Origin: Eledone cirrhosa
Lineage: Eukaryota
Assembly: GCA_964016885.1 (NCBI GenBank)
Contig: OZ024740.1
Coordinates: 68,510,001 to 68,574,000, forward strand
Length of the DNA stretch: 64,000 bases
Direction of reading: 5' to 3'
The position numbers and the translations under genes were made by a program. How positions within the stretch are numbered: position 1 is the stretch's first letter; the number at the start of each line of letters is the position of its first letter. Shown here piece after piece: positions 3,900 through 47,588 of the stretch. The notes beneath the pieces were generated by a model that made no database searches, was not told the DNA's origin, and saw nothing but the letters and a program-made list of their open reading frames with translations.

Positions 3900-6110
3900 T
3901 TTATTCCTTGAATCTCAGTCATTGATGTTGGTTAACTGGAAAGTCCGTTGGATTGAATATCAAGCCACTACCTGCAGCCTCAGATATTCAGGACGTATCG
4001 GAGGGTTCTTGCTGTTCCAAGCAAGCATGCCTTTTGAAGCGTTCCAAAAAGCGTGAAGCGGCCGATTTTCTTTAACCATCCCTGGAAACTTTTGGAGATA
4101 GTCCCCAGTGCGCCTATGACAATCGGGATCACTTTGACTTCATGGCAGTTCCAAATCCTTTTCACCTCCCACTTTAGGTCCTGGTATCGGTTAATTTTCT
4201 CCCTCTCCTTCTCTTGCACTCTCGTGTCGAACGGGCAGGCCACATCCACAATCAGACACGATCTTTTTTCTTTGTCCACAACCACCAGGTCAGGTCTATT
4301 GTGTTCCAGTTTCTTGTCCGTCTGTATTCTAAAATCCCACAGCACCTTCACCTGATTGTCCTCCATCACCGCCTCTGGCCTATGCTCATACCATTTCTCA
4401 GAATGTGGTAGATTGTTTACTTTGCACAGGTGCCAGTGGATCACCCTGCCCATCACATCGTGTCTCCAGCCCTTATAGTGGGTCTGGGCTAGGTGTTTAC
4501 ACTCGGACACAATGTGAGCCACAGTCTCCTCTCTCTCTCCACAGATCCTGCACAGTGGGCTAGCCTCCTCCTTATAAATATGGTGCTTCAACCACTTCGT
4601 TTTGAGGGCCTGCTCCTGCGCAGCCATTAGCATTCCTTCTGTAGCCTTGTTGAGGTCTCCTCTTCTCAACCAGTTCCATGTCTGTGGATCTCTAAATTCA
4701 GTTTTCTCAAAGAAGGTACTATGAAGGGATTTTCGCTTAAGGCTGCTCTTCCTCCTTGATGTTATTTCCTCCTTGGACATCCCCTGGCCTACTGTCCCCT
4801 CCTTCAGTACAGTTCTGAGCATTGGCTCCTTACTATAGGTCACGTATTTGTATAGGTTGTTTTTCTCCATCTGAACACAGTCCTCTATGCTGATAAGACC
4901 TCTTCCACCCTCAGATCTCCTTAGGTAGAGTCTATCGACATCACTCCTCTTGTGGAACATGTTGTAGATAGTCAATAGCTTCCTAGTCTTCCTATCCATT
5001 TCTTTTTGTTCAGCAACATTCCATCTCAGAATTTCCGCACTGTACCTAATAATAGACACAGCTCGGGAATTTACTGCGCTTATGGCATTTCTGCTGTTCA
5101 GATGTGACTTCAATACGCTCCTTACTCTCCGAATGTATTCAGTTCTTAACAATTCCTTCATTTTTTTGTTCTTTATGCCATCAGCCTCCAGAACGCCCAA
5201 ATACTTGTATCCTTCCTCAGAGTCAATTTTCTTTATCATCTCACCTGTTGGTATCTGGATCCCATTACTTCTGTTCAACCTACCCCTCCTCATCACAATG
5301 ATTCCACATTTACCAATACCAAACTGCATACATATATCACTGCTGAAAATACGGACAGTGTCAACAAGCACATCCAACTCCTTCTCACTTTTCCCGAAGA
5401 GCTTAAGATCGTCCATGAAGAGGAGGTGATTGATGGTAAGCTCTCCCCTTCCCAACTTGTATCCTGCTCTCACTTTTCGCAGCATAATGGTCAAGGGCAT
5501 CAGGGCAAGGACAAACAACAGAGGGGACAGGCTATCTCCCTGGAAGATACCTCTCTTGATCTTCACGCTTCCCAAGGATACTCCAGTTGATGTCAACTCT
5601 GTCTCCCAGGACCCCATACTCCTGCCTAGCAACTGTCTGATGTTATCTGCCACCCTGAAGATCTCCAGTCTTTTGGTGATCCAAGAATGAGGCACCATGT
5701 CAAATGCCTTTCTGTAGTCTATCCATCCCATGGCAAGATCAGTGTGTCTCCTCCTGCAATTCTCCATTACCATCTTATCAATAAGTAACTGGTCCTTTGT
5801 AACACGTGACTTCTTTCGGCATCCCTTCTGTTCGTCCGGTAACAAGTTGTTTGTGTGGAGGTGATGGCAGATTTCCTCAGACACAATGCTCGTCAACAGT
5901 TTCCACATTACGGGCAGACATGTGATAGGTCTATAGTTGGTAACATCATTACCCTTGGTTCGGTCTTTCATTATCAGAACTGTGGTACCTTTTGTCAACC
6001 ACTCTGGCACCTCACCCGACACCAAGCAGTCATTGAACATGGCCGTCAGCTTCGGGTGGAGGGATGTTAAATGTTTAATCCAATATCCCTGCACACCATC
6101 TGGGCCTGGT

Positions 6111-6111
<1 letters not shown>
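3900..6111 (-). mobile_element. 5'-truncated R4/Dong-like RLE non-LTR retrotransposon inserted in (TAA)n
   Basis: ORF with RT motifs (PGPDG, NYRPITCL, IDYRKAFDMV, GIFQGDSLSP, LFMDDLKL), CCHC knuckle (CRICGEREETVAHIVSEC) and RLE nuclease (RPDLVV..IVDVACP..EKINRY); short 3' UTR then (AAT)n; 5' junction also in (AAT)n. Confidence 0.92.
3980..6111 (-). CDS. RT + CCHC + restriction-like endonuclease of Dong/R4-like element (uninterrupted but lacking native N-terminus)
   Basis: Frame open from TPGPDG (6111) to RYVLNI* (3980); residues upstream in the ORF track come from microsatellite and the Tx1 5' UTR. Confidence 0.85.
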
Positions 6112-6145
<34 letters not shown>

Positions 6146-6355
6146 GACGAAAGTGGATGTACGTTTTTTGAAGCTCCGTGAGTAAGCAATTTTTTGAGGA
6201 TTAATTGTGGAGAATTGTTTATTTTTTTGTACCGCTGAAGCATTATAAGACATTCATTTGTATCCTGTGAAGGAATAACTCATAATATTTGGGCCTTTTG
6301 GCCCAAATATTTGAACTTTACTTTGGAAAAATAATAATTTTTTTCTCAAAAAAAC

Positions 6356-8268
6356 ATGGCGGAGCCACGCCCCCTAGAGGCGGGTCTGCTGTCGTGCAAC
6401 GGCGACTTGAGCGTTGAGAGGAGAGGTGGGGCGAGGAGCGCCACCACCACGAGTGTGAGCAGCGACAGTGCCAGCACCAACGGGCCGAGCGGCGCGGAAG
6501 GTGGTAACAGCGACCACACCAACACCAACAAGCCGAACAGCGCAGAAGGTGGTAATAGCGAGAGCACCAACAAAACGAACAGCACAGAGAGTAATAGTAG
6601 CGACAGCAGCAGCACCAACAAGGCCAACAGCACAGAGGGTAACCACGACACAGGGGAGAACAACAACAGCAATAGCAGCAGCAACACCAACAAGAACAAC
6701 AAAAGTGACAACACCAACAAGAACACCTTCGCTGCTGTGGCAGCGGCTAAAAGGAGACCATGCTACAGCATCGACTTAACCAACAGAGAGGAAAAGTTGG
6801 CCCAGGCCTGGAAAATCATAAATCAAGAGCAGACCTGGGCAAACTTAACTGTCCCGGCAGAAGCCATTGAGGCAGTGGAAAAAAGAACGGTGCATTTCAG
6901 ATGCATCTCAGTAGAGACAAAGAAGGCAGCGATAATCGCCCAAGCTGATATAGAAGCCGCACTTAAATACATCAGAGAGGACACAGACTTCATAGAGAGG
7001 GGCAGGCAATACGGCACCGTTTCGGTGCTGTTCAAGTCTGAAGCCCTCGCTGTGAAGCATTCAATGACCCCTTACAAAACCAGCAAGGTCATAATGTACC
7101 CCTCCCACATGGGAAAACGAATAGCACGTGTGCGCATTCCCAGGATTCCACCAGGACTTGATATGTGGTGGATCCTGGGTTGCGTAATCGTGGAAGGAAC
7201 GGATACAGTCCCGGTACAGGCAACGAGAACTGCCAGGGACGACTGGTCCGGGGTTGATCTGGAGATACTGCTCCAAATCAGACCCGAAAACGTAAAAGCA
7301 ATCCCGGACCACATCCGCCTCCAAAACGGGAGGGTGTTGCATATAATGACTGAGGGCAAAAGGCCGCATTGTTTCCTTTGTGGGGAAACGACACACTTGC
7401 GAGCCTTCTGCCCTCAACTGCCGAAAAGCGCAAGGGGTCGAAAGATTCCACTGCTGGCGACGCCGGGACAAGGACCACCAGCAACACCGTCAACAATGGA
7501 ACCACCAAAATTGCACACCCAGGGGGGAAACGAGGAAAGCTCTCCCATTCCCCCCCCCCCCCCCGAAATACACACACGAACAAGAACATAAACACTCACT
7601 CAGACACAAACACGCTCACAGCCACAGACCCCTCATCCTCCAGCAGTGAAGATGAGGGAAAACCAAAGTCCCCCAAAATACAAAAAACAAAACACAAAAA
7701 AAAAAGAAATCCACAAAGCACAAACACCCCCACAAAAAAAAATACACACACCACCCACACAAACATTTTCCCCACAGCATCACCAACACAACCACCAAAA
7801 TCCCCCAAACGCAAACAAGCTAAACAGACACAAGAACAAATAGACACACAAACATCAGAAACTACAGACACCCCACCCACAACAAACGCAGACACAATAG
7901 AAACAACACTAACAAAGCTATCACCACCACAATCACACGAACAAATAAAACCCGAGCAACAAAACATTAAAAACTTCGTGCTTGCCAGAAGGGCCAACAA
8001 GGAATTGATGGCCCATGTAGCACGAAGCACAAACATCGAAAAAGAGGGGGAAACATTTGAAGCGAGCACATTTCGCGTACCAGATAATTTGCTTCTGATG
8101 CGAATGTCGCTCGCTTCATACAAAGAAATTCGAAAGAGCTTTCCTCGGGATGTGGGAACCCCGAACGTAAAACCCACTTCAAGACTATTAAAGGGGTTCC
8201 CAAAAGAAACCCCACAAACCATGGAGGTCGAACCACCCGACCTTCACAAGACCCCGGAAGGTAAGTAA
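6356..8268 (+). pseudogene. Tx1-A ORF1 (N/S/T-rich N-terminus, CCHC zinc knuckle, T/P/K-rich tail), frameshifted at poly-C
   Basis: 6356-7591 carries CFLCGETTHLRAFC; continues in the 7369-8268 frame after the C run at 7550-7564. Confidence 0.85.
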
Positions 8269-8297
8269 ACCTTTCCTCTCCCATTCATCCTGCCAGC

Positions 8298-11200
8298 ATG
8301 GCCATAAGAGTAGGAAGTTTAAATGTTCGTGGCCTGGGGTCGCCCAGGAAGCAAGGTCACTTGCTCAACGACCTCAGGTCACTAGGAATGGATGTAATTG
8401 CCATCAGCGAGACCAGAATTTCCGACACACGCGCACTGGCGCCGATTTTCGACGATTATCAGATCTTTGCATCTGTTAGTCGGCCGGGAATGGGAGGTGG
8501 AGTGGCTGTGCTGTTTAGGAAATGTCTGGATCTCGAGGTAAGGTCAATCTTCCGGGATCCTGACGGAAAGTTGGTGGTCCTGGACGTGAGCAATAGCGAA
8601 GGTGGTGCCTTTAGACTGGTGGCCGTCTACGCCCCTACTGGGGCCGGTCGGCCGGACTTCTTTAGGCGCCTGGAAATCTTTCTGCTTACGTCTCGCCCTT
8701 TACTGTTAATAGGGGATTGGAATGGCATCTTAGAAGCACGCTGGGATTGTGTGGGAGTATCTGATAGGAGCGGGGGGTGCAAAAGACTCAAGTACCTGAT
8801 CAGCCAGTTTCAACTGTCTGACAGGTACCGACTAGATTTCCCTAATGCGCCAGTATGGACCTGGACCAATCGCATAGGGTCATCTAGATCGTACATAGAT
8901 AGGATTTTCATTAGGAAAAGAGATAGAAATAGTGTAGGATGTCCACATTTTAAAACGGTTGCCTATTCAGATCACAAGCTTGTGATCTGTATGGTCGACC
9001 TAGACAAGACACGTAGGTTAGGACCCAGCTACTGGAAGCTAAACATGTCGTTTCCGGCACGTAAAGCTTACAGGGACCGGGTCAACAACTTAGTTAAGCA
9101 AAAGTTGACAGGGGGGGTTGTCAACAACAGGTGGTGGGGGGCTCTCAAAAGAGAGATTAGAGCAACCTCGATAGGATTTAGCAAAGAAGTAGCAATAGAG
9201 AAAAATAGAAAGGAGGAGGGGCTGATAGCTAAGTTAGACGAGGCTATTTGTAGTGGCATTGCAACAGACGTGCTAGCGGCGAGAATGGCACTAGACCATT
9301 TCTTCAATGCGAAACACGAAGGTTGCATTGTCAGAGCTAAGGCGCGTGCTCTGAGGAACGAGGGAACCGAAGCTGCCCGATGGGCTCGCTTTGCAGAGAC
9401 GCAGCGTGGAAATAAAACCACAATTCGGTCTTTGACGGATCGAGATGGACACGAACTGAGCGATTCCAAGCAGATGTGTGAGGCCTTTCGCCAGCACTTT
9501 GCTCGATTGTTCGGGAGGATGGGTGAGTCGGAGACGGCGGCGGACTTCAGTCCCTACCTCGACGGCTTGCCACGCCTCTCGACGGCCGACGCTGAGCGCT
9601 GCGAAGAGCCGATAACATCAGTCGAAATTCAGGACGCCCTTGTCGGCTGCTCGAGTCGCAAGTCACCCGGTTTGGATGGTCTGCCCTACGAGCTTTACGT
9701 AAATATGCCAGACTTGTTCTCCGATCTCCTCCAAGCGCTCTACTGCAACTGGCAGCAGAACGGGAGCATTCCCAGTTCTGTGAGCCGTGGCGTAGTGACG
9801 CTGATAAGGAAAGACGAGAACAAGAGGGACACACTAGATAATTTCAGGCCCATAACCCTGCTCAACACAGAGTTTAAGATTTTGGCCAAGGTGTTAGCGA
9901 AAAGGTTGGCGCTTGTCGTCAAAGATTTGGTTGGGGAGGCGCAAACTTGCGCAATCCCGACCAGGTTCATACACGATAACCTCCACCTCATGCGATACAT
10001 CATAGAGAGGGTTGGGTGCAAACCTGGCTTCGGTGGGGCTCTGATCAATTTAGATCAATCGAAAACATTCGATAGGGTCGACCATCGGTACTTGGAGGCT
10101 GGCCTCGAGGCGGCTGGCTTCGGCCCCGTCTTCAGAAGCTGGATCACTGCAATGTACAGCGGCATCTGCTCGGTGGTCAAAGTTAATGGCCACCTCTCGG
10201 AACCGTTTCAGATCTCTCGATCGGTCCGTCAAGGGTGCCCTCTCTCCTCACTTCTGTACGTATTGACTCTTCAGCCTGTACTGCGGAAGCTGGAGTTGTT
10301 GCAGGGCATCCCGCTCGAACCGGGACGTAGAAAGGCTGCGTCCGCTTATGCGGACGACATCACCGTGATGGTGTCGGACACCTAGGAAATCGAGGTGATC
10401 CGCACCCATTTGGAGGAATATGAAAGGTTGACGGGAGCAACATTTAACCCGGAAAAGTGGGTGGGCTTGCAGCTCGGCACCTGGAGAGGCAAGTCCATGC
10501 CGTCCAACAGCGTCGTTGGGCGCTGGACAGACGGACCGGTAAAGTTGCTCGGGGTTTGGTTCGGACCAGACCTCCAGGTGGATAAGAATTGGGACGAGGT
10601 GACGAGCAGGATAGCCAACCTCACCCAGAAATGGGCTGAGAGAAAGCTATCACTGAAAGGGCGGGCGGAGGTGGCGAACGCGTACATCGCGTCCGTCATC
10701 TACTACCGCCTGACCGTCGTGCCTTTCCCCCGTCCACGCCTCGCCAATTTGGAACGGCTCCTTTTCAAATTTGTGTGGAGGGGACGGGTCCCGTTGGTGA
10801 GGCGGTCCATCTGCTGCCAGCACCCTCTTTGTGGAGGGCTGGGCATGCCGTGGCTAATGATGCGCAGACATGCGCTGAGGCTGCGACATCTCCAGATATT
10901 TTGCCTAAACGGTGAACAGGTGTGGTCGCCGTTTGTTAGACGGGCCTTCCCGCAGCTCATCTCTTTGACTGAGCTGCAGTCCTGGGTCAAGAGAGACCGA
11001 GACTGGGCGACTGGCATCTGGAATGTTGCAGGCGCTCACTGCACTCTGCAAGGTGGGCAATGCGGTCAGTGGAACTTCCACTCAAGATTTCTATAGAGGA
11101 TTAGTGGAGGGCAAGTACGATGACGTACTAGGAGAGGCTCTAGGCGTCAACGAAGTAGAACTGACCAGTATGTTCCGGAGGACTTTCAAGCCGGGGACGA

Positions 11201-11715
11201 TGGATAACTTCCAGAAATCCCTCGCTTGGCAGTGCTACCGGGGGGCGCTGCCGGTTCGAGATAAACTCTACAGGCACGGAAGTGCTGTCAGACGAACCTG
11301 TCCGAGATGCGCACAGAGCGACGAAACCGTTCTGCACGCACTCGTCCAGTGTCCGTGCATTGCTGACTTGTGGGGTTATGTCGAACAGCTATTGTCGCGT
11401 GTAGAACGGATCCGGCTATCGTCCGAGTCCATAGTGAAGATTGACCCGCCGCATTCTTTTGGTCAGGAAGGGCAGGCAATTTTCCTCTGCCTGGTGGCAG
11501 TAGCGAAAGAGGTTGCATGGTGGACCAGGTTTAAAGGACTGAAGACAGACACTTTTCTCTTCGGCCAATCCCTCATCAACTTCTTCAAGTTTCATTTGGA
11601 AAGGAAGGTGAGGGTGGAGAGAGAAGTGCTGTCCCCCAGTACATTTACTGAAAGGTGGGTGAATGTGGCGAGAATGGCCCGCGTGAGTGGGCCTACTCTG
11701 ATCATGCGCCTGTAG
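8298..11715 (+). pseudogene. Tx1-A ORF2 (APE endonuclease, RT, C-terminal CCHC) with stop at 10383 and a frameshift near 11000
   Basis: SLNVRGL, ISET, VYAP, GDWN, IDRIF, SDH (APE); PGLDG, RPITLL, DQSKTFDRV, RQGCPLS, YADD (RT); CPRC..ETVLHALVQC. Confidence 0.92.
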
Positions 11716-11966
11716 GCTGGTGAATTCGAGAAGGAGAGGGCTGCCCTTCCCGGGTGCCCTAGGAGCGTCGGGTGGCTCAGGACTGGTGGGGTGCTTGAGT
11801 CAACCCTGGGTGGTGATCCCTCTTATTGGGGAACTTTCATTGTTGTATTTTTATTGTTATTTTGTTTTTGTTATCTATACCTTTACTCGATGTCTATGTA
11901 AACCCCCACTGTCCCTTTCTATTGTGTTGTCCCCTATATGTCGGCCCTTGTGGCCAATAAATGAAA

Positions 11967-12001
<35 letters not shown>

Positions 12002-12515
12002 GTTCTTTGAGTCTCAGTCATTGATGTTAGTTAACTGGAAAGTTTGTTGAAATGAATATCAAGCCACTACCTGCAGCCTCAGATATTCAGGACGTATCGG
12101 AGGGTTTTTGCTGTTCCCAGCAAGCATGCCTTTTGAAGCGTTCCAAAAAACGTGGCGGGGCCAATTTTCTTTAACCATCCATGGAAACTGTTTGAGATAG
12201 TACCTAGTGCGCCTATGACAATCGGGACCTCTTTGACTTCATGGCAGTTCCAAATCCTTTTTACCTCCCACTTTAAGTCCTGGTATCTGTTAATTTTCTC
12301 CGTCTCCTTCTCTTGCACTCACATCCACAATCAGGCACGATCTTTTTTCCCTGTCCAAAACCACCAGGTCAGGTCTTATTGTGTTCCAGTTTCTTGTTCG
12401 TCTGTATCCTAAAATCCCATAGCACCTTCACCTGATCGTTTTCTATCACCGACTCTGGCTTCTGCTCATACCACTTCTAAGAATGTGGTAAATTGTTTAC
12501 TTTGCATAGGTGCCT
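12002..12515 (-). mobile_element. More diverged 3' fragment of Dong/R4-like element (RLE C-terminus + 3' UTR)
   Basis: Encodes EKINRYQDLKWEVKRIW...RYVLNI*; about 20-bp internal deletion near 12320; its (TAA)n tail hosts the Tx1 element. Confidence 0.9.
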
Positions 12516-19659: not shown

Positions 19660-21450
19660 TCAATCCTGGTAGTATTTATATGAAAATGTAGATTTTAAGC
19701 GATGGTTACAGTATAACGATCGCTCTATTCTGTTATTTAATAAAATGTTTTTGGATTTCATAATACAAAATAATTCTACATTACATAATTTACAAAATTC
19801 CTGTCCATGGGATATGGGGGGGGGGGGGGCAGCCGCTATTATATCCCATTTTAGGTGAAATTGTTGGTTATTTTCACGCAGCTGCCAAGCCTTGTCTGCG
19901 AGTGTTGTTACATAACGCTGGTTTTCATGTTTTATCGAATAACGATGTCTATAAAGGCGTGATTTGAAGGAGGTAGCTGTAGATCCCACATAGTACCACT
20001 TCTGTCTATCCGATTCGATAGTACATTTGTATACGATGTTGCGTTCAAGACACTGATTGTTCAACGGACACATTCCTGGTTGGACACAGTTGCAATTATA
20101 ATTTTGCGTTGTTGTACTGCCATGGATGGGTTGATGAGGTTGCTTATGTAGGACAGGATGTTGTTTGTTGTTTTGTGATGTTATAGCTAATGTTTTACGT
20201 GTATTGTTATGTGTTGGAAGGCGTTTATACAACCGTTTTGCGTTAAGCTTTTTTATATGTTGTTCAATATTAGGGGCGGTTGAATATGAAAGTCGAATAG
20301 TGTTAGGGTTTAAGATTTTATTATATTTATGTGATGTTGGAAAGTGTTTTCTAACTAATCGAAAGAATTTTGAGGGTAGATTGGTTTTAATAGAGTTGTT
20401 ATAGACCGGGTTGTACCCGATATACTCCTTACATCGCCTTCTGTTTGGTGGTGTGCGACTATTATTGTGTCTATTGCGGTAGTGTATGTATGGTGGTGAT
20501 TCTGTGCTATTTCTACTCATATGTGATTTATTTTGGGTGTTTTGGTGATCTTTGACTATATACTCTATATTATCTAGGTGACCGGCTTTCCTAAGTGCAT
20601 CATCATAATACTCGGCATGTTCTTTGAAGGTTTGTTGGTTGGACGATAGGCGGGAGATCCTAAGAGAAACATTTCTAGGGATGGATTTAATTATAGAGAG
20701 TGGATGGTTAGAACTCGTATTTACATATTTAAGGTTCTCATTTAGTTTATGGAACGGTTTAATCGTATCTGTATTGAGATTGAAAGTAACATCAAGGAAA
20801 TTGACCTCTTTGAGGTTATATTCAAATGTAATATTTAATCCTAGTTCCTTAAAAAGCTTTCTGATATTTTTACGCATCCTTTCTAAATTCTGGTTATTCA
20901 TATGCTTAACTAATAGGAGCGCATCGTCACGGTAAATTCCACCGTGGAGATCCTTGAATTTTCCTTGTAATCTGTGGGTGATATAAATTCCCACAAGATC
21001 TGTTACTTCCGCCGAATCATTAGAACCCATAGTGATATCAAAATTAGAAGGTCTATCTTTGCGAACCCAGTAGCTATCATCGAATTTAACTATAGTTTTT
21101 CTCGCTTCCATAATAATTTTAATTTCAGCATCCGTAAGGTCGGAATTATCCTTAGCGAACGAAAGAGCTTCATGTAGAGTATCAGGTGAAATTGAGGAAT
21201 AATATTCATCAATATCAAACTGAATAAATTTTGATTTTTTCTTATCAGTAATGTTATTAAACCATCTTATTGCTTCATGAGTGTTACCCCATAGTTTAAT
21301 CTCTATGTTAACCTTAACTTGGGGGATAATTCTGTCTAGTATATATTTGCTAATTTTACCTATATCAGATTTAGAGGGGCATATAAGTCTAATATTAGGG
21401 TTAGTATCGAAGTTTACCTTGTGGTCCTTCAGGTTGAAGGATGGTATAGC
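19660..21450 (-). CDS. PLE RT + GIY-YIG ORF, 5'-truncated but uninterrupted
   Basis: KDHK, FIQFDIDEYYSSI, ITMGS, GIYRDD, VNFLD, CNCVQPGMCPLNNQC, YYVGST, CKLC. Confidence 0.88.
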   Translation of the reverse strand, partial: AIPSFNLKDHKVNFDTNPNIRLICPSKSDIGKISKYILDRIIPQVKVNIEIKLWGNTHEAIRWFNNITDKKKSKFIQFDIDEYYSSISPDTLHEALSFAKDNSDLTDAEIKIIMEARKTIVKFDDSYWVRKDRPSNFDITMGSNDSAEVTDLVGIYITHRLQGKFKDLHGGIYRDDALLLVKHMNNQNLERMRKNIRKLFKELGLNITFEYNLKEVNFLDVTFNLNTDTIKPFHKLNENLKYVNTSSNHPLSIIKSIPRNVSLRISRLSSNQQTFKEHAEYYDDALRKAGHLDNIEYIVKDHQNTQNKSHMSRNSTESPPYIHYRNRHNNSRTPPNRRRCKEYIGYNPVYNNSIKTNLPSKFFRLVRKHFPTSHKYNKILNPNTIRLSYSTAPNIEQHIKKLNAKRLYKRLPTHNNTRKTLAITSQNNKQHPVLHKQPHQPIHGSTTTQNYNCNCVQPGMCPLNNQCLERNIVYKCTIESDRQKWYYVGSTATSFKSRLYRHRYSIKHENQRYVTTLADKAWQLRENNQQFHLKWDIIAAAPPPPISHGQEFCKLCNVELFCIMKSKNILLNNRIERSLYCNHRLKSTFSYKYYQD

Positions 21451-31726: not shown

Positions 31727-32959
31727 CTACATTTTAAATTTAAATTTATATTTAAACGTTGAGTTTAATCTATGTTTGCAACAACTGAATAAATTTGTCC
31801 GTAGGTTAAGGGAATTTTTAGATTTTAGTATAAAGAATATCTCCTCTGCGCAGAGGTCACATGTCTCAGAGGATGAATTAAAAGGAATCCCTCTTGAGAC
31901 TATATTCCAAGCCGTCGAATATCTAACGTTATCTAGCTTAAGTTGCCAGAGTACACCTGATAGTGCCGTTGAAGATTTTTTATTTGGATCTGTGAAAGAA
32001 TTCTTGTGGTTATTATAGCGAAGTTTAAATTCCGTCGATGTGGAACCGACGTAGTTAAAAGAATTAGAGTCAGTATTAACATTACAATTGTATACTATAT
32101 TTTTAACTAAGCAGTTGTTATTTAACGGACATTTAGATCTATCTCTACAGTTACATTTGTTAACTTGTATATTATTTATGCTATTATCAGTAGGTTTTAA
32201 GTTCCTATTATTTATTCTATTAATATTTTGTGCTAAATTTTTGGTGGATGAGTAGGTTAATTTAATTGTATGCCTATTGAAGATTGAGTGGTACCTATGT
32301 GTTCTAGGGAAGCGATTATCAAGAGCTTTGAAAAATAATTTAGCGATGTGGGTTTTAATGTTTAGTGAGAAAGGGGGGGCAAACCAAATTATGTTCCTAG
32401 TTCTATTTCTTTTTTGTCCTTTGGAATTATTGTAATGCTTTCTATTATAGTTGTTAATGTTGTTGCCGTCATTAAAAAAGTTGTTACTTTGTTTAGTTTG
32501 TTTATCATTATCTATGTACACAATCTTATCAGCATACCCTGCCCTAGCTAGTGCATCATTATAGTATTGGGCCTTTTCGTAAAAAATCTTTCTATTCGAC
32601 GAGATCCTAGAGATACGTTTTTGGACTGAGTTTACTATAGTGTTTTTGACAGATCTGGGGTGGTTAGAGTTAAAGTTGACATAGTTTAAGTTTTCATTCA
32701 ACTTGTGAAAAGGATAGTGGAGACATGTGTTGAGATTTAATGTTATATCTAGGAAATTGACTATTCTATGGTTGTTCTCAATTTCTATTTTAAGGTTAAA
32801 GTAATTAAAAAATTTTGTAATTTGTTTACATTTTCTATTTAGTTCAGGGTTATTATTATTAATAAGTAAAAGCATGTCATCCCTATATAAACCTCCGGTA
32901 GTACCAGGTATTTTCCTATGTAGCGAATTGATTAAAAATAAGCCCACAAGGTCAGTTAC
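31727..32959 (-). pseudogene. Inverted 5'-truncated copy of the PLE ORF
   Basis: 406-aa match to the C-terminal part of 35421-37634 with two visible amino-acid differences (T/K, H/N). Confidence 0.92.
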
Positions 32960-35420: not shown

Positions 35421-37634
35421 ATGGAATTCTTTAAGATTACTTCCTCTCTAAAAGACATACCTCTACCTAGAAACAAAGACTTTGTAAAACAACTAACAGA
35501 TAAATCTGACTCTTTTATAAGGAGAATCAGGTGGCGTGCATTCCACTTTGATAAATTTAATGCAGACGAAAATATCTCGGACTTAAACAAAGTTTTCAAA
35601 TCTAAAAGAAATCCACCCCCTAACAAACTTTTATCTGACTTTGAAAACGATATAATTTCTATCATACAAGGGGTCAAATTCAAGAGAAACTTTAAAAGCC
35701 AGGAATATCTGAAAGGCATTAACGATAACATTGAGAGCTTAGAGAAAACTGAGAAGATCTTGGTGAAATCTGACAAGACCAACAATCTCTATGGAGTGCA
35801 GAAAGACATGTATAATGGCCTCATACTGAAAGAGCTGAGGAAAAAATACAAGGTAGCAGATAAGACCGAACTTGAGAAAATGAATGTTGAAGCATCTTGT
35901 ATAATGCATGAGTTAGAAATTGAGAACAGAACACAACCTTTCGTGCCCAGGAAACCGAAGATCAATATGAAGGACCACAAGAGGAATTTTGAGATTGACC
36001 TGTCAGTTAGATTGATCGCACCTTCAAAATCTGACCTGGGCAAATTAAGCAAAAACATTCTTGACAGGGTGATACTGCAAATTAAGAACTTGGATTATGT
36101 ATCTAACCTGAGCTTGTGGAAGGGAACTGGAGAGGTTGTTGAGTGGTTTAGGCAAATTAAATATGACAATAATAATAGGTTTATTCAACTTGATATAGCT
36201 AACTATTATTCTTCTATTACCCCTAGTCTACTAAATAAGGCACTAAATTACGCATTCAAACATACGGACCTAACTAGCAAAGAAATGCATATTATATTAT
36301 CGGCTAGGAAAACTTTGATAGAATTTGATGACAAATTATGGACCAGAGCAGATAGAGATAGCAATTTTGACATAACTATGGGATCTTCCGACTCAGCTCA
36401 GGTAACTGACCTTGTGGGCTTATTTTTAATCAATTCGCTACATAGGAAAATACCTGGTACTACCGGAGGTTTATATAGGGATGACATGCTTTTACTTATT
36501 AATAATAATAACCCTGAACTAAATAGAAAATGTAAACAAATTACAACATTTTTTAATTACTTTAACCTTAAAATAGAAATTGAGAACAACCATAGAATAG
36601 TCAATTTCCTAGATATAACATTAAATCTCAACACATGTCTCCACTATCCTTTTCACAAGTTGAATGAAAACTTAAACTATGTCAACTTTAACTCTAACCA
36701 CCCCAGATCTGTCAAAAACACTATAGTAAACTCAGTCCAAAAACGTATCTCTAGGATCTCGTCGAATAGAAAGATTTTTTACGAAAAGGCCCAATACTAT
36801 AATGATGCACTAGCTAGGGCAGGGTATGCTGATAAGATTGTGTACATAGATAATGATAAACAAACTAAACAAAGTAACAACTTTTTTAATGACGGCAACA
36901 ACATTAACAACTATAATAGAAAGCATTACAATAATTCCAAAGGACAAAAAAGAAATAGAACTAGGAACATAATTTGGTTTGCCCCCCCTTTCTCACTAAA
37001 CATTAAAACCCACATCGCTAAATTATTTTTCAAAGCTCTTGATAATCGCTTCCCTAGAACACATAGGTACCACTCAATCTTCAATAGGCATACAATTAAA
37101 TTAACCTACTCATCCACCAAAAATTTAGCACAAAATATTAATAGAATAAATAATAGGAACTTAAAACCTACTGATAATAGCATAAATAATATACAAGTTA
37201 ACAAATGTAACTGTAGAGATAGATCTAAATGTCCGTTAAATAACAACTGCTTAGTTAAAAATATAGTATACAATTGTAATGTTAATACTGACTCTAATTC
37301 TTTTAACTACGTCGGTTCCACATCGACGGAATTTAAACTTCGCTATAATAACCACAAGAATTCTTTCACAGATCCAAATAAAAAATCTTCAACGGCACTA
37401 TCAGGTGTACTCTGGCAACTTAAGCTAGATAACGTTAGATATTCGACGGCTTGGAATATAGTCTCAAGAGGGATTCCTTTTAATTCATCCTCTGAGACAT
37501 GTGACCTCTGCGCAGAGGAGATATTCTTTATACTAAAATCTAAAAATTCCCTTAACCTACGGACACATTTATTCAGTTGTTGCAAACATAGATTAAACTC
37601 AACGTTTAAATATAAATTTAAATTTAAAATGTAG
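35421..37634 (+). CDS. Intact PLE RT + GIY-YIG endonuclease (737 aa), Naiad-like
   Basis: N-terminal SLKDIPLP...RRIRWRA, KDHK, QLDIANYYSSI, ITMGS, GLYRDD, VNFLD, IIWFAPPF, CNC-x5-C-x5-C finger, VY..NYVGST..FKLRY, CDLC, KH. Confidence 0.95.
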   Translation: MEFFKITSSLKDIPLPRNKDFVKQLTDKSDSFIRRIRWRAFHFDKFNADENISDLNKVFKSKRNPPPNKLLSDFENDIISIIQGVKFKRNFKSQEYLKGINDNIESLEKTEKILVKSDKTNNLYGVQKDMYNGLILKELRKKYKVADKTELEKMNVEASCIMHELEIENRTQPFVPRKPKINMKDHKRNFEIDLSVRLIAPSKSDLGKLSKNILDRVILQIKNLDYVSNLSLWKGTGEVVEWFRQIKYDNNNRFIQLDIANYYSSITPSLLNKALNYAFKHTDLTSKEMHIILSARKTLIEFDDKLWTRADRDSNFDITMGSSDSAQVTDLVGLFLINSLHRKIPGTTGGLYRDDMLLLINNNNPELNRKCKQITTFFNYFNLKIEIENNHRIVNFLDITLNLNTCLHYPFHKLNENLNYVNFNSNHPRSVKNTIVNSVQKRISRISSNRKIFYEKAQYYNDALARAGYADKIVYIDNDKQTKQSNNFFNDGNNINNYNRKHYNNSKGQKRNRTRNIIWFAPPFSLNIKTHIAKLFFKALDNRFPRTHRYHSIFNRHTIKLTYSSTKNLAQNINRINNRNLKPTDNSINNIQVNKCNCRDRSKCPLNNNCLVKNIVYNCNVNTDSNSFNYVGSTSTEFKLRYNNHKNSFTDPNKKSSTALSGVLWQLKLDNVRYSTAWNIVSRGIPFNSSSETCDLCAEEIFFILKSKNSLNLRTHLFSCCKHRLNSTFKYKFKFKM

Positions 37635-41824: not shown

Positions 41825-42065
41825 TATTTCTTTATTAGCCACAGGGGCACAAAAGAAGGGGACAAATACAAAGGGGGAAGTTTACATACAATAAAAACGT
41901 GTAAAATGTTATCACAAATGTAATTTAAAAAGTTAGTCGATTTTCCCCAATAGAGGGAGACAGTTTATATGGGTAACACATACCCCCGAAAAAAAATGTG
42001 CAACCCTCATCACCAGGAGTACGAAGAGGTTGTACTCCTTTCCTCTCCTCCTCCTTTTCCTCAAC

Positions 42066-45000
42066 CTACAGGCTGATATAGAGAGAAGGCCCATTCACTC
42101 GGGCCATTCTCGCCACCTTCACCCACCTTTCATAAAACTTGCTGGGGTACAGCACCTCTCTCTCCATCCTGATTCTTCTTCCAAAGTGGTATTTGAAAAA
42201 AAGAATCAGTTGTTGGCCGGAGGGAAAGGTGTCTGACCTCAGCCCTTTCAACCTTGTCTGCCATACAACCTCTTTCGCCATAGCTATCACACAAAGGAAA
42301 ACCGCCTCTCCTTCGTTTTTGAAGGAGGGTGGCGGTTTGATCATGACAATGGACTCGGTGGCCAACTGGATTGGTCCCACCCGCGGCAATAGTCGTTCTA
42401 CATAGCCCCACAGGTCAGTGACGCCCGGACAGTGTATGAATGCGTGCACGACGGTTTCTTCGTCTCGCACGCACCTCGGACAGATCTTTTTTGCAGGGTC
42501 CCTGCCCGGGCGCCCATGTCTGTAGAGCCTGTCTCGAACTGGTAGAGCTCCTCGATAGCATGCCGGCCCAGAGACTTTTGGAAGTTGTCCATCGGTCCCG
42601 GGCGGAAGGTCCTACCGGACAGACTGGCCAGTTCATCTTCCTCTACGCCTAGAGTTTCACCGAGCGCGTCGTCGCACTTGCTGCAGACCAACCCTCTATA
42701 GAATGAGGAAGTGGAGTCTCCACTGATCGCCGGGTCCGCCTGCCAGAGGGCTGTGAGCGCCTGAGCACATTCGAGGTGCCAGTCGCCCATTTTCCTCGGT
42801 CTTTGCTTGACCCAGGACTGCAGCTCGGTCAGCGAGACGAGTCGTGGGAAGGCTCGCCTCACGAACGGGGCCCACACCGGTTGTCCGGTGAGGAATACGT
42901 AGAGATGCCGCAGCCTGAGCGCTAGTTTGCGCATCGTCAACCACGGCAACCCCAGCCCTCCGTTAGAAGGGTGTTGGCAGCAGATGGATCTTCTCACCAA
43001 AGGAGCCAGCCTCTTCCAAAGGAATCGGAAGAGCGCGCGCTCCATTTTGGCGAGCGTTTTGTCTGGACAAGGCACGAGGGTCAAGCGGTAGTATATGGTT
43101 GACGCTATAAAAGTGTTCGCCACTTCCGCTCGACCTTTCAAGGATAGTTTGCCCTCGGCCCACTTCTGGGTGAGTGCAAAGACCTTGGCCGTCACTTCGT
43201 TCCAGTTCTTCTCGACCTGGAGGTCCGGACCAAACCAGACCCCGAGCAGCTTTACCGGTCCTTCCGTCCAGCGTCCGACGATGCCATCGGAAGGCATCGG
43301 TTTGCCTCTCCACGATCCGAGTTGCAAACCGATGGACTTGTCCCGGTTCAGCTTCGCTCCTGTGAGACTTTCGTATTCCTTCAGTAAGGTGCCGACTTCC
43401 TCGATTTGTGAGGCGCTCGACACCATTACTGTCACATCGTCGTCGTAGGCCGACGCCGCTTTCCGCAGTCCCGGTTCCAGAGGGATACCCTGCAATAGCT
43501 CCAGCTTCCGCAGTAGTGGCTCGAGAGTCAGTACGTACAGAACTGAGGAGAGAGGGCATCCCTGTCGAATGGATCGCGTAAAATGGAACGGGTCCGAGAG
43601 GTAGCCGTTCACATTGACCCTTGAGCAGATGTTGCTGTTGTGCATTGCAGTAATCCAGCCCCTGAACAGGGGTCCGAAGCCTGCCGCCTCGAGCACCGCA
43701 TCCAGGTAACGATGGTCAACCCTATCGAAAGCCTTAGACTGATCCAAGTTGATCAGGGCCCCACCGAAGATGGGTTTACACCCTACGCTCTCTATGATGT
43801 ATCGCATGAGGTGGAGGTTGTCATGTATGGAGCTGGTCGGGATTGCGCATATCTGCGCTTCTCCCACCATGTTCTCGACGACAAGCGCCAGCCTCTTTGC
43901 CAACACCTTGGCCAAAATCTGTAACTCTGTGTTTAGCAGAGTTATGGGCCGGAAGTTGCATATGTCATCCCCCTTATTCTCGTCCTTCCTGATTAGTGTG
44001 ACCACGCCCCGGTTACAGAACTGGGAATTCTCCCGTTCAGTTGCCAGTTGCAGTAGACTGCTTCCAGGAGACCGGAGATTAAGTCCAGCATTGCTACGTA
44101 AATTTCGTAGGGTAGACCGTCGAGACCAGAAGATTTTCGTTTGCCGCATTGGCTCAGCCCCTCCCCTATCTCAGTGGCTGAAATCGGCCTTTCGCAGAAC
44201 TTTGCCTCGCTGTCCGAGAGTCGCGGTAGGCCGTCGAGGTATGGACCGAAATCCATAGCCTCCCCCGGAGCCCCCCCCCCCCCCCCCACCCCGAACAGCT
44301 GAGCAAAGTGCCGCTGAAAAGCCGCACACATCTGCTTCGGTTCACGTATCACGCGGCCGTTTTCGTCCTTCAGAGACCGAATCGTGGACTTGTTGCCACT
44401 GTTTGCCTCTGTCACTCGGGCCCAGCTAACAGCTTTGGCTCCCTCGTTTCCCAGAGCACGTATTTTGCTTCTGACAACGTAGCCCTCGTGCTTTGCGTCG
44501 AAGAACTGGTCCAAGGCCGTTTCCGTTGCTAGCACGCTGGCTACGTTGCCACTTCTAATTGCCTCTTCTACTTTATCTACCAGTTCCTTCTCGGTTCTAT
44601 TTCTATCTACCGCTAATTCTTTACTAAAAACTATCGAGTCTAATCTAACTGCCCTCTTGAGAGAGTACCACCATCTGTTGTTGACAATGGCCCCTGTCAA
44701 GTGCTGTTTAACTAAAGTGCTAATCCGTCTACTGTAGGCTTTGCTTGTCGGTAACGACAAGTTCAGCTTCCAGTAGCCGGGTCCTTGTCTATGGGTTCTA
44801 TCAAATTGGCCATGCAGGTCACTAGTTTGTGATCAGAAATAGCAACCAATGACATTTGTGGACAGCTTAACATGTTCCTATCCTTATTTCTAACTAGAAC
44901 CCTATCTAGGTACGATCTAGATGTTCCGCTACGGAAAATCTAGTCGGAAAATCTAGTCGATATCTATCGGCCAGGTCAAATTGGTCGATTAACTGTTTGA

Positions 45001-45467
45001 GGCTGTTACACCCCCCTTTATCGGGACATGCTCCCACATAGTCCCAACGTGAATCTAGGATTCCATACCAGTCCCCCACTAAAAGCAAGGAGCTGGACGC
45101 TCCCAGAAAAGTCTCTAGACAATTGAAGAAGTCTGGCCGCGGTGTCCCGGATGGGGCATATGCGGCCATCAGCCTGAAGGCTCCACCTTCACTACCGTCA
45201 ACGTCTAGGAACACCAGTCGACCCTACGAGGCCCAGGTGTTTCCGCAGCAAAACGGCAACTCCTCCCCCACCCCCCGGTTGACAGAGAGATGCGTAGATC
45301 TCAAAGTCATCGAAGATGGGGGCCAGCTGTCGCTCGCCGTGGATCCTGGTCTCGCAAATGGCTACCACATTCATACTGTGCGACCTGATGTCGTTTAAGA
45401 GTTTGCCCTGTTTCCAGGGCATCCCCAGGCCGCGTACCTTCACACATCCAACTCTTATATTGGCCAT
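42066..45467 (-). pseudogene. Tx1-B ORF2 (APE-RT-CCHC), several frameshifts
   Basis: MANIRVGCVKVRGL, GDWYG, NFRPITLL, DQSKAFDRV, RQGCPLS, YDDD, EETVVHAFIHC spread over five ORF-track pieces. Confidence 0.9.
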
Positions 45468-45498
45468 GTTGGTGCTGAAAAGTTAAAAGAGGAAAGAG

Positions 45499-47370
45499 AT
45501 CACTCACCCTTCGCCTCCTGGGGATCAGGCCGCACGATATCCATGGGGGTGTTGGAGGGGTTGTCTGGATGGGTGGTGGTTTCCGGCGGGGTGGGGACGC
45601 AGATGTATGGTGGGGTGGGGGTGTCTTGGTGGGGAGACATTTGAGATGGACGCGGTTGAGTGGTTTCACGCAGGAATTCCCCACATCCTTCTCAAATGTT
45701 TCTTTTAGGGACCTATAAGTTTGTATAGGGACCCTAATCAGATTTAGGTTCAGTTTTTTTGCTATTTTTGATAGAGTGGGCGAAAGTTTTCCCTTCGGTT
45801 TTCACTGAAGGGTCGTTCGTGATGGTCTCCATTAGTGTTTTGTTTTCAGTGTTTATGTAAGTGTAAGTGCAATTTTCTTGTGTTGTTTTTGTTTTTGTCT
45901 GTAGTTCTTGTGTGTGCTTTCGTTTTGTTGTAGGTATTTTGTTTTCAGGAGGTGGGGGTTTTGTTTGTGATGTTTTTGTTGTTTGTGTTGGTGGTTGTAT
46001 GTTTGTGTAGTGTTTGCTGGTTTTTTGCTTTTGTGATGTCTTTCCTTTCTTTTCGAGCGATGGGGTTCTCCCTCGTCTTCACTGGGTGATGGCGAGATAG
46101 CCTCATCTGTTGTATCGTCTGTGTGATTGGGGAGGGGTATGTCTGCAGTGGTTTTAGGTGGAGTGGGGTTGGGTGGGAATGTGTTTGTTGTGGTTATTTT
46201 TGTGTGTTGGTGTTGTTGTTGTTGTGGTGGTGTTGGTGGTTGTGTTGTTTTGATGGGAGTCGGCAGAAGAGCCTTTTTTGGGTTCATTAATTTAGGACAG
46301 GAAGCCCTCAGGTGACCCCTGCTAAAGCAATGGTAACATGAAAGCCGCCTACCCTCAACCGAAAAATTTATGTAGGTGAGTCCGTCCAGGAGTACACGCT
46401 GTGGGATCATAGCTATTCGCTCCGGGCTCATTTGCACCAGAACTTCAATGCTAGTCCCATTGAATACATCTCTGGGGGACTTGCCTACTGACAGTATTCT
46501 GTCTTCATCAAAATGGATGAAGCCGCACAGTATCCACCATATGTTCACCTTTGGCGTGACACTCGTGATTCTGATCTTTTGTGTCCTTTATCCCATGTAT
46601 GTAGGGAAAAAGGTGTACAGGTTGTATACAATTGGCGACACAGAGTAATTTTGGGCCGTCAATTGATCCTTCATGAGTACCGAAATACTCCCAAAAAGTT
46701 TGCTTCTTTGAATGAATGCAATATCATTCATTGAATTTTTGAAAACCGGTTCCATTTCTTTCTGTGACAATTGGACTGGTTTTCGGGTAGAATTGGAAAC
46801 TGTCCTAAAAACAATCGTTTTGAGAGCAGTTTCCTTGCGAATTTCTACCAGAGAATTGATGCTGAAAGCACCATTTTTTTCGAAACTGACATATCGCCTA
46901 GCCTCCTTTAAAAGTTGTTCAGCATTTGTTATGTCGAGATATATCAATTCTTCCTTTTTTTGAACTTTCTCTGCAAAGGAGCTTTTTGGTTTCTTTGTGG
47001 AATCCGTATTGGTGGTGTTGTCATTATTGTTGTTATTGTTGTTGTTATTCTTGTTGTCACCGATGTTGGTATTATCCGTATTTTCCTTGGTGTTGTTGTT
47101 GTCTTTGATGCTGGTGTTATTGGTGTTGTCTTTATTTTTTTCTTTGTTGTTGTTATCATTGTTGCTTTTATCATCATTATTGGTGTTGCTGTTATTTTTG
47201 TTGTCAATGAATTGTTTGGTGTCATTTGTGTTGTTTGGATATGAATTCGTTTTTACATTTTCATTTCGTCTTTCCATCTCTATAGTATCTAGTGAAGAAG
47301 ACGTTGTTGACTGCGAGCTTGGTAGTCTTACCGCCTCTCCACCACCATTATCGTTGGACGCAGCGTTCAT
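45499..47370 (-). pseudogene. Tx1-B ORF1 (Asn-rich N-terminus, CCHC knuckle), frameshifted
   Basis: ORF pieces 46588-47370 and 45853-46548 (CYHCFSRGHLRASC) align with Tx1-A ORF1 (PTYMG/PSHMG, WWILC/WWILG, EGRR/EGKR). Confidence 0.83.
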
Positions 47371-47588
47371 AACGTAATCAAAATTTTAAAATATTTTTTC
47401 CAAGATTCGATGGAGAAAACATTTTCAAATGGATATTCCGCGCCTGTAGGGGCGAAAATGAGTTGACCCACCACCTGAAGGTTCAGACGTGGAGTCAAGT
47501 TACACAATGATATACAATTTAACTAAAAACTCACGGTTTTTTTCTTACATAAATTAACGGAAACTTCTCCGCGAAGTTACACACGTCT

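What the first reader, a model, noticed from the sequence alone, without database searches (positions are those of the whole stretch)
6146..11723. Tx1 LINEs with splice sites bracketing each ORF: predicted mutually exclusive ORF1-only and ORF2-only mRNAs
Seen in sequence: both diverged Tx1 elements carry the same four signals at equivalent positions. D1 is a 5' UTR donor CC|GTGAGT (A 6178; B 47534 minus). D2 is a donor overlapping the ORF1 stop (A GAAG|GTAAGT 8261; B AAGG|GTGAGT 45507). A1 is a pyrimidine tract + CAG just before the ORF2 ATG (A 8296, B 45475). A2 is CCTGTAG|G, where the AG is the ORF2 stop codon (A 11715, B 42066; pyrimidine tract clear in B, weak in A). D2 and A1 are only 36 and 33 nt apart. 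Inference: that distance is probably too short to splice, so D1>A1 would delete ORF1 (ORF2-only mRNA, ATG in C(A/G)CATGG context). D2>A2 would delete ORF2, and ORF1 would then stop almost at once in both elements (G|GC TGG TGA; G|GT TGA). Established: L1-group ORF2 is normally translated from unspliced bicistronic RNA by reinitiation, although spliced L1 RNAs are known in mammals. A conserved splicing switch would be a different expression strategy.
Basis: partly seen in the sequence, partly recalled or inferred. Interest (0 to 1): 0.85.

Follow-up and report, generated by a model that had tools for sequence, protein, structure and literature searches.

The report
Octopod LINEs with spliceable ORF2
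A large family of octopus-type LINE retrotransposons keeps a strong splice-donor motif at the end of its first gene and an acceptor-like site at the end of its second, which likely lets it cut out the enzyme gene to make a message for the first protein alone, a strategy known from copia-type elements; no spliced RNA has been seen yet.

Summary
All four motifs are at the stated places. The two copies belong to a clade with about 12,400 ORF2 starts in this genome, which I split into 16 families.

D2, the donor at the ORF1 stop, is present in 16 of 16 families, in three reading phases, and ranks first or second among about 270-306 GT sites in 12 of 12 scored. A2 (ORF2 stop TAG) is kept in 14 of 16; the two losers carry another acceptor-like site in the 3' UTR. 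A D1-like motif is in 12 of 13 5' UTRs.

A1 is not conserved: 4 of 16 families. The ORF2-only mRNA is therefore unsupported.

Best reading: ORF2 is an optional 3.45-kb intron, giving an ORF1-only mRNA (0.55). The main rival is U1 binding without splicing (0.25).

Against: no junction was seen. There are no spliced genomic copies in six families, and contigs bridge both sites unspliced.

The parts
6146..11968 (+). Element A, full-length L1-group (Tx1-like) LINE inserted in an (ATT)n tract; young family with about 98.5% identity between copies
6178..6183 (+). D1, 5' UTR donor-like hexamer at +33, followed by an AT-rich stretch; AGs 63, 72 and 95 nt downstream
6356..8268 (+). ORF1 (636 aa in intact copy L043; frameshifted near 7550-7565 here); RRM-like region plus CCHC knuckle
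8261..8266 (+). D2, strongest donor of the element, phase 1, overlapping the last ORF1 codons and the first base of the stop (8266-8268)
8269..8296 (+). Pyrimidine-rich inter-ORF spacer ending in CAG (A1); tract shared by all families, AG not conserved
8298..11715 (+). ORF2 (APE endonuclease, RT, zf-RVT; 1139 aa in intact copies); lies inside the predicted intron 8261-11715 (3455 nt); nonsense codon at 10383-10385 and frameshifts in this copy
11676..11693 (+). Predicted hairpin near the ORF2 end, inside the predicted intron; predicted in 11 of 12 families, one compensatory pair in family H
11714..11715 (+). A2, AG of the ORF2 stop TAG; first downstream base 11716; purine-rich stretch follows
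11716..11968 (+). 3' UTR with AATAAA at 11956-11961
41827..47588 (-). Element B, full-length copy of an older family (92-96% between copies at the junction), inserted in (TATC)n
47529..47534 (-). B D1 donor-like hexamer; acceptor-like AGs 60 and 91 nt downstream in the family copy scored
45502..45507 (-). B D2, phase 1, ORF1 stop at 45502-45500
45475..45477 (-). B A1 (CAG); fixed in B but absent from most families
42066..42067 (-). B A2, AG of the ORF2 stop; best-scoring AG downstream of D2 in the family copy scored

Best explanation
These Tx1-like LINEs keep a strong splice donor at the ORF1 stop and an acceptor-like AG at or after the ORF2 stop, and they likely treat ORF2 as an optional intron of about 3.45 kb. 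Unspliced RNA would be the genome and the ORF2 template, translated by reinitiation as in other L1-group elements. Spliced RNA would join the ORF1 end to the short 3' UTR and make nearly full-length ORF1p alone, raising the ORF1p:ORF2p ratio as the spliced gag RNA does in copia. The spliced RNA would make no ORF2p, so cis preference would keep it from being copied back. A hairpin inside the intron could add to that exclusion (speculative). D1 is likely a separate 5' UTR signal (a 59-72 nt intron or a U1 site), not a partner of A1. Shown: motifs, their conservation, phases and ranks. Inferred: that the spliceosome joins D2 to A2, and the purpose.
For: (1) D2 in 16 of 16 families: -1G, +1G, +2T and +6T in 16, +3A and +5G in 15, +4A in 12 (G in the other 4); positions +7 to +11 drop to 6-10 of 16. 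(2) It persists in phase 1 (5 families), phase 2 (10) and phase 0 (1), with different C-terminal residues, so neither an amino acid nor the stop explains it; +5 and +6 are non-coding in the phase-2 families. (3) D2 ranks 1 or 2 among 267-306 sense GT sites in 12 of 12 families scored (donor weights recalled, approximate). (4) No downstream AG (of about 250-270) outscores A2 in B, D, G, I and K; 1-4 do in A, E and E2 (crude score). (5) After a D2>A2 join, ORF1 would stop within 4 codons in 10 of 14 TAG families, against 6 of 28 mismatched frames (permutation p 0.02, not corrected for kinship). Between B and the D/K/E/G/I clade the donor phase shifts from 1 to 2 and the stop behind A2 shifts with it by one base. 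(6) C and C2 lost TAG; they and J carry a U-tract plus CAG in the 3' UTR that ranks second downstream in C and C2, while sister H keeps TAG and has CAC there. (7) Three of 4 database ORF1 relatives that include the C-terminal domain have Gly-Lys within the last 8 residues, the phase-1 donor's peptide trace; two are named from Argonauta hians and Octopus sinensis (DNA not seen). (8) Precedent: PMC5580714 (passages read) describes spliced gag-only RNAs and the ~3-kb intron of Drosophila copia.
Against: (1) No junction was observed. None of the 15 listed joints of 935 matches a predicted one, and in run X4 (kind not on record) contigs bridge D2/A1 (8217-8792) and A2 (11652-11956) unspliced. (2) No spliced genomic copy: 0 of 342 exact A ORF1 ends. 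One-sided patterns for E, D, C, B and G gave 1, 0, 1, 7 and 0 hits; all 9 were small indels or one deletion that misses the splice position by one base. Denominators for these five were not counted. (3) TAG retention alone is not significant: 11 of 36 comparable synonymous A/G sites in ORF2 keep G in 10 or more of 12 families. The last four-fold sites of ORF2 show no excess conservation (rank 110 of 394). (4) The stop-phase match fails in E2, E3, F and J (25-98 codons; F checked in 6 of 6 new copies with a 3' end). On the tree it rests on about one clear compensatory change among four phase shifts. (5) A2 is weak in A2 and H (17 and 12 better AGs), and no consistent branch point is evident. 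(6) U1 sites in retroelements can act without splicing (PMC5580714), and a conserved L1 5' UTR donor is kept for a transcription-factor site (PMC5860796, discussion read).
Confidence: 0.55

Rival explanations
1. D2 and D1 are U1 snRNP landing sites that act mostly without splicing: they block premature polyadenylation or support transcription or export of the full-length RNA. A2 is then just a stop codon in a pyrimidine-rich codon run.
For: The donor is far better conserved than the acceptor. No spliced copies were found. The ORF1 part holds 1-7 poly(A)-like hexamers in the 11 scored families with D1 and none in H, the one family without D1 (a single case). U1 suppresses premature termination in the Arabidopsis copia element EVD (PMC5580714).
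Against: ORF2 holds only 0-3 such hexamers downstream of D2, so there is little to protect. It does not explain the stop behind A2 moving with donor phase, or the replacement acceptor in C/C2/J.
Confidence: 0.25
2. The D2 motif plus pyrimidine tract is a translational element for ORF1 termination and ORF2 reinitiation that resembles a donor by coincidence.
For: It sits 28-50 nt before the ORF2 start in the families measured. Family G has ATA in place of the ORF2 ATG, overlapping its ORF1 stop. Termination-reinitiation is proposed for L1 and SART1, and tolerance of non-AUG restart codons is described for caliciviruses (PMC5972666, passages read).
Against: The variation follows the donor rule exactly (A/G at +3 and +4, fixed +5 and +6), and the motif keeps no fixed position relative to the stop (stop at +2, +6, or about 35 nt later).
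Confidence: 0.08
3. No function: the motifs are inherited from one ancestor and have not yet decayed.
For: The families are one clade (mean four-fold-site identity 0.62). TAG retention is within the neutral range. Only 6 of 39 distant relatives examined (of 80 loci) have a donor-like motif before ORF2.
Against: Neighbouring spacer and ORF1-end positions are largely scrambled and at least four phase shifts occurred with the donor intact. A D1-like motif is in 12 of 13 otherwise divergent UTRs against 2.25 expected from shuffles (kinship not corrected).
Confidence: 0.07
4. One reading: a two-way switch that also makes an ORF2-only mRNA by D1>A1.
For: A1 is fixed within families A and B and an AG also occurs in A3 and J. 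The ORF2 ATG has a good context in most families.
Against: Absent in 12 of 16 families, including A's sister (G has only an AG that replaces the ATG). 0 of 322 A 5' ends and no E/E2 5' end are joined onward; human L1 yields about 1.8% spliced full-length copies (PMC5860796), which would be about 6 here.
Confidence: 0.05

Closest known systems
Drosophila copia and plant Ty1/Copia spliced gag RNA (shGAG of EVD; PMC5580714, passages read)
   Same: One transcript is either left whole as genome and enzyme template or spliced into a structural-protein-only mRNA; the copia intron is ~3 kb and ends before the natural 3' end; a U1 site may also protect the long RNA.
   Different: Those are LTR elements with a Gag-Pol polyprotein, and splicing is shown. 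Here it is a two-ORF LINE whose ORF1 already has its own stop, and splicing is only predicted.
Human L1 spliced RNAs and SpIREs (PMC5860796, abstract, introduction and first part of discussion read)
   Same: L1-group element with a conserved donor in the 5' UTR; most RNA unspliced.
   Different: L1 splicing is 5' UTR-internal or UTR-to-ORF1, leaves genomic copies and is judged a dead end. Here the strongest donor is at the ORF1 stop, its likely partner is at the ORF2 stop, and no spliced copies were found.
Microsatellite-targeting Tx1 elements Kibi and Koshi (PMC4494074, passages read)
   Same: APE-RT LINE inserted in simple repeats; here (ATT)n for the A/C/H/J group and (TATC)n for most of the B-K group.
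   Different: Different host phylum and targets; the passages read mention no splice sites. No reference Tx1 sequence was available for a tree.
Termination-reinitiation in L1 and SART1 (PMC5972666, PMC3894237, passages read)
   Same: Short inter-ORF spacer; ORF2 most likely made from bicistronic RNA.
   Different: A word search of PMC3894237 finds no 'splic'; the model here adds a spliced ORF1-only RNA on top.

Membership tests
L1-group non-LTR retrotransposon | ORF2 with N-terminal APE endonuclease, RT and C-terminal zinc domain | tested here: met
   Pfam Exo_endo_phos, RVT_1, zf-RVT; best solved relative is human L1 ORF2p, E 8e-57, against 3e-22 for R2
L1-group non-LTR retrotransposon | Separate upstream ORF1 with RNA-binding and zinc-knuckle region | tested here: met
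   636-661 aa intact ORF1s with an invariant CCHC; Atlas hits are CCHC/RBD clusters at 0.89-0.92; Pfam zf-CCHC only weak
Tx1 clade | RT phylogeny groups with named Tx1 references rather than L1 | not testable with these tools
Tx1 clade | Target preference, e.g. microsatellites | tested here: met
   19 of 20 A copies printed begin directly after (ATT)n, and the 20th shows the same; other families follow (ATT)n or (TATC)n
Copia-type spliced subgenomic RNA strategy | Conserved donor at the end of the structural ORF | tested here: met
   16 of 16 families
Copia-type spliced subgenomic RNA strategy | Conserved acceptor that removes the enzyme ORF and leaves a promptly terminating structural ORF | tested here: inconclusive
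   AG in 14 of 16, prompt stop in 10 of 14, TAG retention not above neutral
Copia-type spliced subgenomic RNA strategy | Spliced RNA demonstrated | tested here: inconclusive
   Only contigs of unrecorded kind; no predicted joint among 15 shown of 935
SpIRE-forming L1 | Spliced copies integrated in the genome | tested here: not met
   None found
   4 of 16 families

The most novel reading that the evidence does not exclude
A whole clade of octopod LINEs, over ten thousand near-full-length copies in this genome, has evolved a retrovirus-like split of RNA pools: ORF2 is a regulated intron, the spliced RNA is the dedicated ORF1p message, a short 5' UTR intron marks that message, and the RT-recognition hairpin lies inside the intron so that only unspliced RNA is copied. 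Splicing would then be an on/off switch for retrotransposition and could supply ORF1p without mutagenic ORF2p in somatic tissue.
Probability: 0.3. Interest if true: 0.8.

Novelty: new variant of a known kind. Interest (0 to 1): 0.6.

Why it matters
How two-ORF LINEs set the ratio of ORF1p to ORF2p is usually put down to inefficient reinitiation, and LINE splicing is regarded as harmful to the element (PMC5860796). A donor held through 16 families and three reading phases indicates selection for a U1-type site at the ORF1/ORF2 border. If it is used to skip ORF2, LINEs have converged on the copia solution. It is cheap to test: one junction per family in existing cephalopod RNA-seq. It also bears on reports of LINE transcripts in octopus neurons (cited in PMC13282606, passages read), since reads from an ORF1-only RNA would not indicate retrotransposition potential. 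I found no description in the searches (listings only; open-access library only; supplements not read; Repbase not available).

Tried and rejected
RNA: no RNA holder listed (5 runs, kind not on record). Contigs of 4 runs were laid on A. In X4 the contigs over 7088-8246 and 11652-11956 carry depths of about 190-350 against about 6-24 for the listed ORF2 contigs and 20 for the 5' part of ORF1. Contig depth cannot rank parts of a gene, X4 is not on record as RNA, and the break is at 8246 rather than 8260, so I do not count it. Which genomic copy those contigs come from was left open.

Spliced genomic copies: none. L215 looked like the B junction but is a one-base insertion; L217 is a ~130-nt deletion one base off a splice. 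C2, F, H, I, J and K were not searched, and exact patterns miss diverged copies.

Other searches: ORF1 word search found nothing. Rfam has no match in the window. Earlier findings: none.

Revised along the way: the first phase tally (10 of 11) fell to 10 of 14 after adding A3, E3 and J and re-checking F. My first D1 pick for A by score was another GT at +14; D1 has a weak exon side.

Rejected: D2>A1 as a mini-intron or ORF1-ORF2 fusion, since in A and B the join is out of frame with ORF2 (read from the sequence) and most families lack the AG. Distant metagenome relatives do not share the pattern, so it is not general to L1/Tx1.
Full report
What the elements are. The window holds two full-length, broken LINEs: A (6146-11968, +) and B (47588-41827, -). 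ORF2 has APE endonuclease, RT and zf-RVT, and its nearest solved relative is human L1 ORF2p. ORF1 has a CCHC knuckle. Named ORF1 relatives come from Octopus and Argonauta, so the host is likely an octopod. A is young: 18 of 20 copies fetched match the window over most of its length at 97.5-98.9%, three have an intact 1139-1140 aa ORF2 and one an intact 636 aa ORF1. The genome holds 322 exact A 5' ends and 342 exact ORF1 ends. The Tx1 label fits the microsatellite targeting but was not tested by a tree.

Observation.

Comparison across families. Degenerate patterns found 11,367 + 1,081 ORF2 starts and 22,817 ORF2 ends; only the first 100 places of each were listed. From these I fetched natural copies and defined 16 families by eye, most represented by one copy in the tables, with a tree. 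Several 3' end types seen only as truncated copies were left out because their donor phase is unknown.

D2 is the firm result. It is present in 16 of 16 families, with G-GT and +6T invariant, +3A and +5G in 15, and A or G at +4, while the next five positions fall to 6-10 of 16. It lies in phase 1 in A, A2, A3, B and H, phase 2 in ten families and phase 0 in G, under different C-terminal residues. With recalled, approximate donor weights it ranks first or second of 267-306 GT sites in all 12 families scored. Three of four database ORF1 relatives that include the C-terminal domain have Gly-Lys near their end, consistent with the donor in other octopods, though their DNA was not seen. Only 6 of 39 distant relatives examined show such a motif, so the trait appears limited to this clade.

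A1 fails. A YAG before the ORF2 ATG exists in A, A3, B and J only; A's sister A2 has CAA; G has an AG only because its ATG became ATA. The pyrimidine tract is universal regardless. No A 5' end is joined onward (0 of 322), nor any E/E2 5' end (denominator not counted). The ORF2-only mRNA is not supported.

A2 is suggestive, not proven. The ORF2 stop is TAG in 14 of 16 families, and no downstream AG outscores it in 5 of 10 scored TAG families; it is near the top in 3 and weak in 2. C and C2 have TAA, but with J they carry a U-tract plus CAG in the 3' UTR that sister H lacks. After a D2>A2 join ORF1 would stop within 4 codons in 10 of 14 families, against 6 of 28 wrong frames (p 0.02, ignoring kinship). 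The best single case is the one-base shift behind A2 that accompanies the phase 1 to 2 change between B and the D/K/E/G/I clade, which leaves the protein end unchanged in D, E, I and K. Against this: E2, E3, F and J would gain 25-98 codons; TAG retention is matched by 11 of 36 ordinary synonymous sites; and the ORF2 end shows no excess four-fold conservation.

D1. A donor-like hexamer lies at +22 to +77 in 12 of 13 5' UTRs (2.25 expected from shuffles, kinship not corrected; H has none). In 11 of the 12 an AG lies 59-73 nt after the first such hexamer, and in C one lies 66 nt after a second GT. Its exon side is weak. It may bound a short UTR intron, act as a promoter-proximal U1 site, or overlap a transcription-factor site as the L1 donor does (PMC5860796).

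Direct tests were negative or blind. No spliced genomic copy was found for A, B, C, D, E or G. This is expected if the spliced RNA lacks ORF2 and cis preference is strong, but it gives no positive support. Contig data listed 15 of 935 joints, none predicted, and contigs in run X4 bridge both sites unspliced; the run's kind is not on record, and contigs drop rare or short connections.

Mechanism. I commit to ORF2 as an optional intron giving an ORF1-only mRNA beside the unspliced bicistronic RNA (0.55). Shown: a conserved, phase-independent donor, a mostly conserved acceptor-like site, and no conserved A1. Inferred: splicing itself, its purpose (ORF1p excess or decoupling ORF1p from ORF2p), and exclusion of spliced RNA from reverse transcription. 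A hairpin 20-40 nt before the ORF2 stop, predicted in 11 of 12 families and with a compensatory pair in H, could be an RT or packaging signal inside the intron; that is speculation.

Relation to known systems. It would work like the spliced gag RNA of copia elements (PMC5580714, passages) but is not a member of that group. It differs from human L1 splicing, which is described as a dead end (PMC5860796: abstract, introduction, first part of discussion). Other papers were seen as passages (PMC4494074, PMC5972666, PMC3894237, PMC13282606, PMC8770142) or only as search listings; no supplements were read. Searches listed nothing whose title or abstract start describes this for a LINE; subscription papers and Repbase notes were not covered.

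Verdict. It is a new variant of a known kind, interest 0.6, decidable by one junction count in raw RNA reads.

Noticed in passing
window 6146-11968 family; G000:C1:423.36-423.42 Mb: Family A is unusually often full length (322 exact 5' ends against 342 ORF1 ends) and forms head-to-tail arrays, including ten 5' ends spaced about 5.8 kb apart, because each tail recreates the (ATT)n target.
   Followed up: partly
L123, L124 (family G), ORF2 start: The ORF2 start codon is ATA in all listed copies of this family and overlaps the ORF1 stop TAG; this suggests non-AUG reinitiation or a non-autonomous family.
   Followed up: partly
window 11676-11693 and equivalents: Predicted hairpin in the last ORF2 codons; family H changes both arms and two amino acids while keeping the pairing.
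   Followed up: partly
5' UTRs of A, A2, B, C, C2, E, G: Otherwise divergent 5' UTRs share two or three stem-loops, some with GNRA-like loops; no Rfam match in the window.
   Followed up: no
L036, L251, L252, L260: Chimeric or nested copies: 5' part of one family with ORF2 or 3' end of family C.
   Followed up: no
L113, L114 (family D): Family D sits in an ~80-nt tandem repeat rather than a microsatellite, so target choice differs within the clade.
   Followed up: no
window 3980-6112 (-) and 12079-12318 (-): A different non-LTR element (RT plus weak zf-RVT and, by recall, a restriction-like endonuclease end) flanks A; the listed ORF start at 6253 runs into A's 5' UTR and is probably spurious. 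A second 3' fragment lies just after A.
   Followed up: partly
window 35421-37634 (+), 31727-32875 (-), 19660-21111 (-): Long ORFs that look like Penelope-type RT plus GIY-YIG elements (label recalled; no Pfam support); two are near-identical inverted copies.
   Followed up: no
G000:C1:88940859-88940947 (-): An H-like copy with almost no spacer, which by eye puts the ORF1 end in frame with ORF2; single row.
   Followed up: no
window 7088: In run X4 a contig starts exactly after an AG inside ORF1, just upstream of an in-frame ATG; possible internal acceptor, unverified.
   Followed up: no
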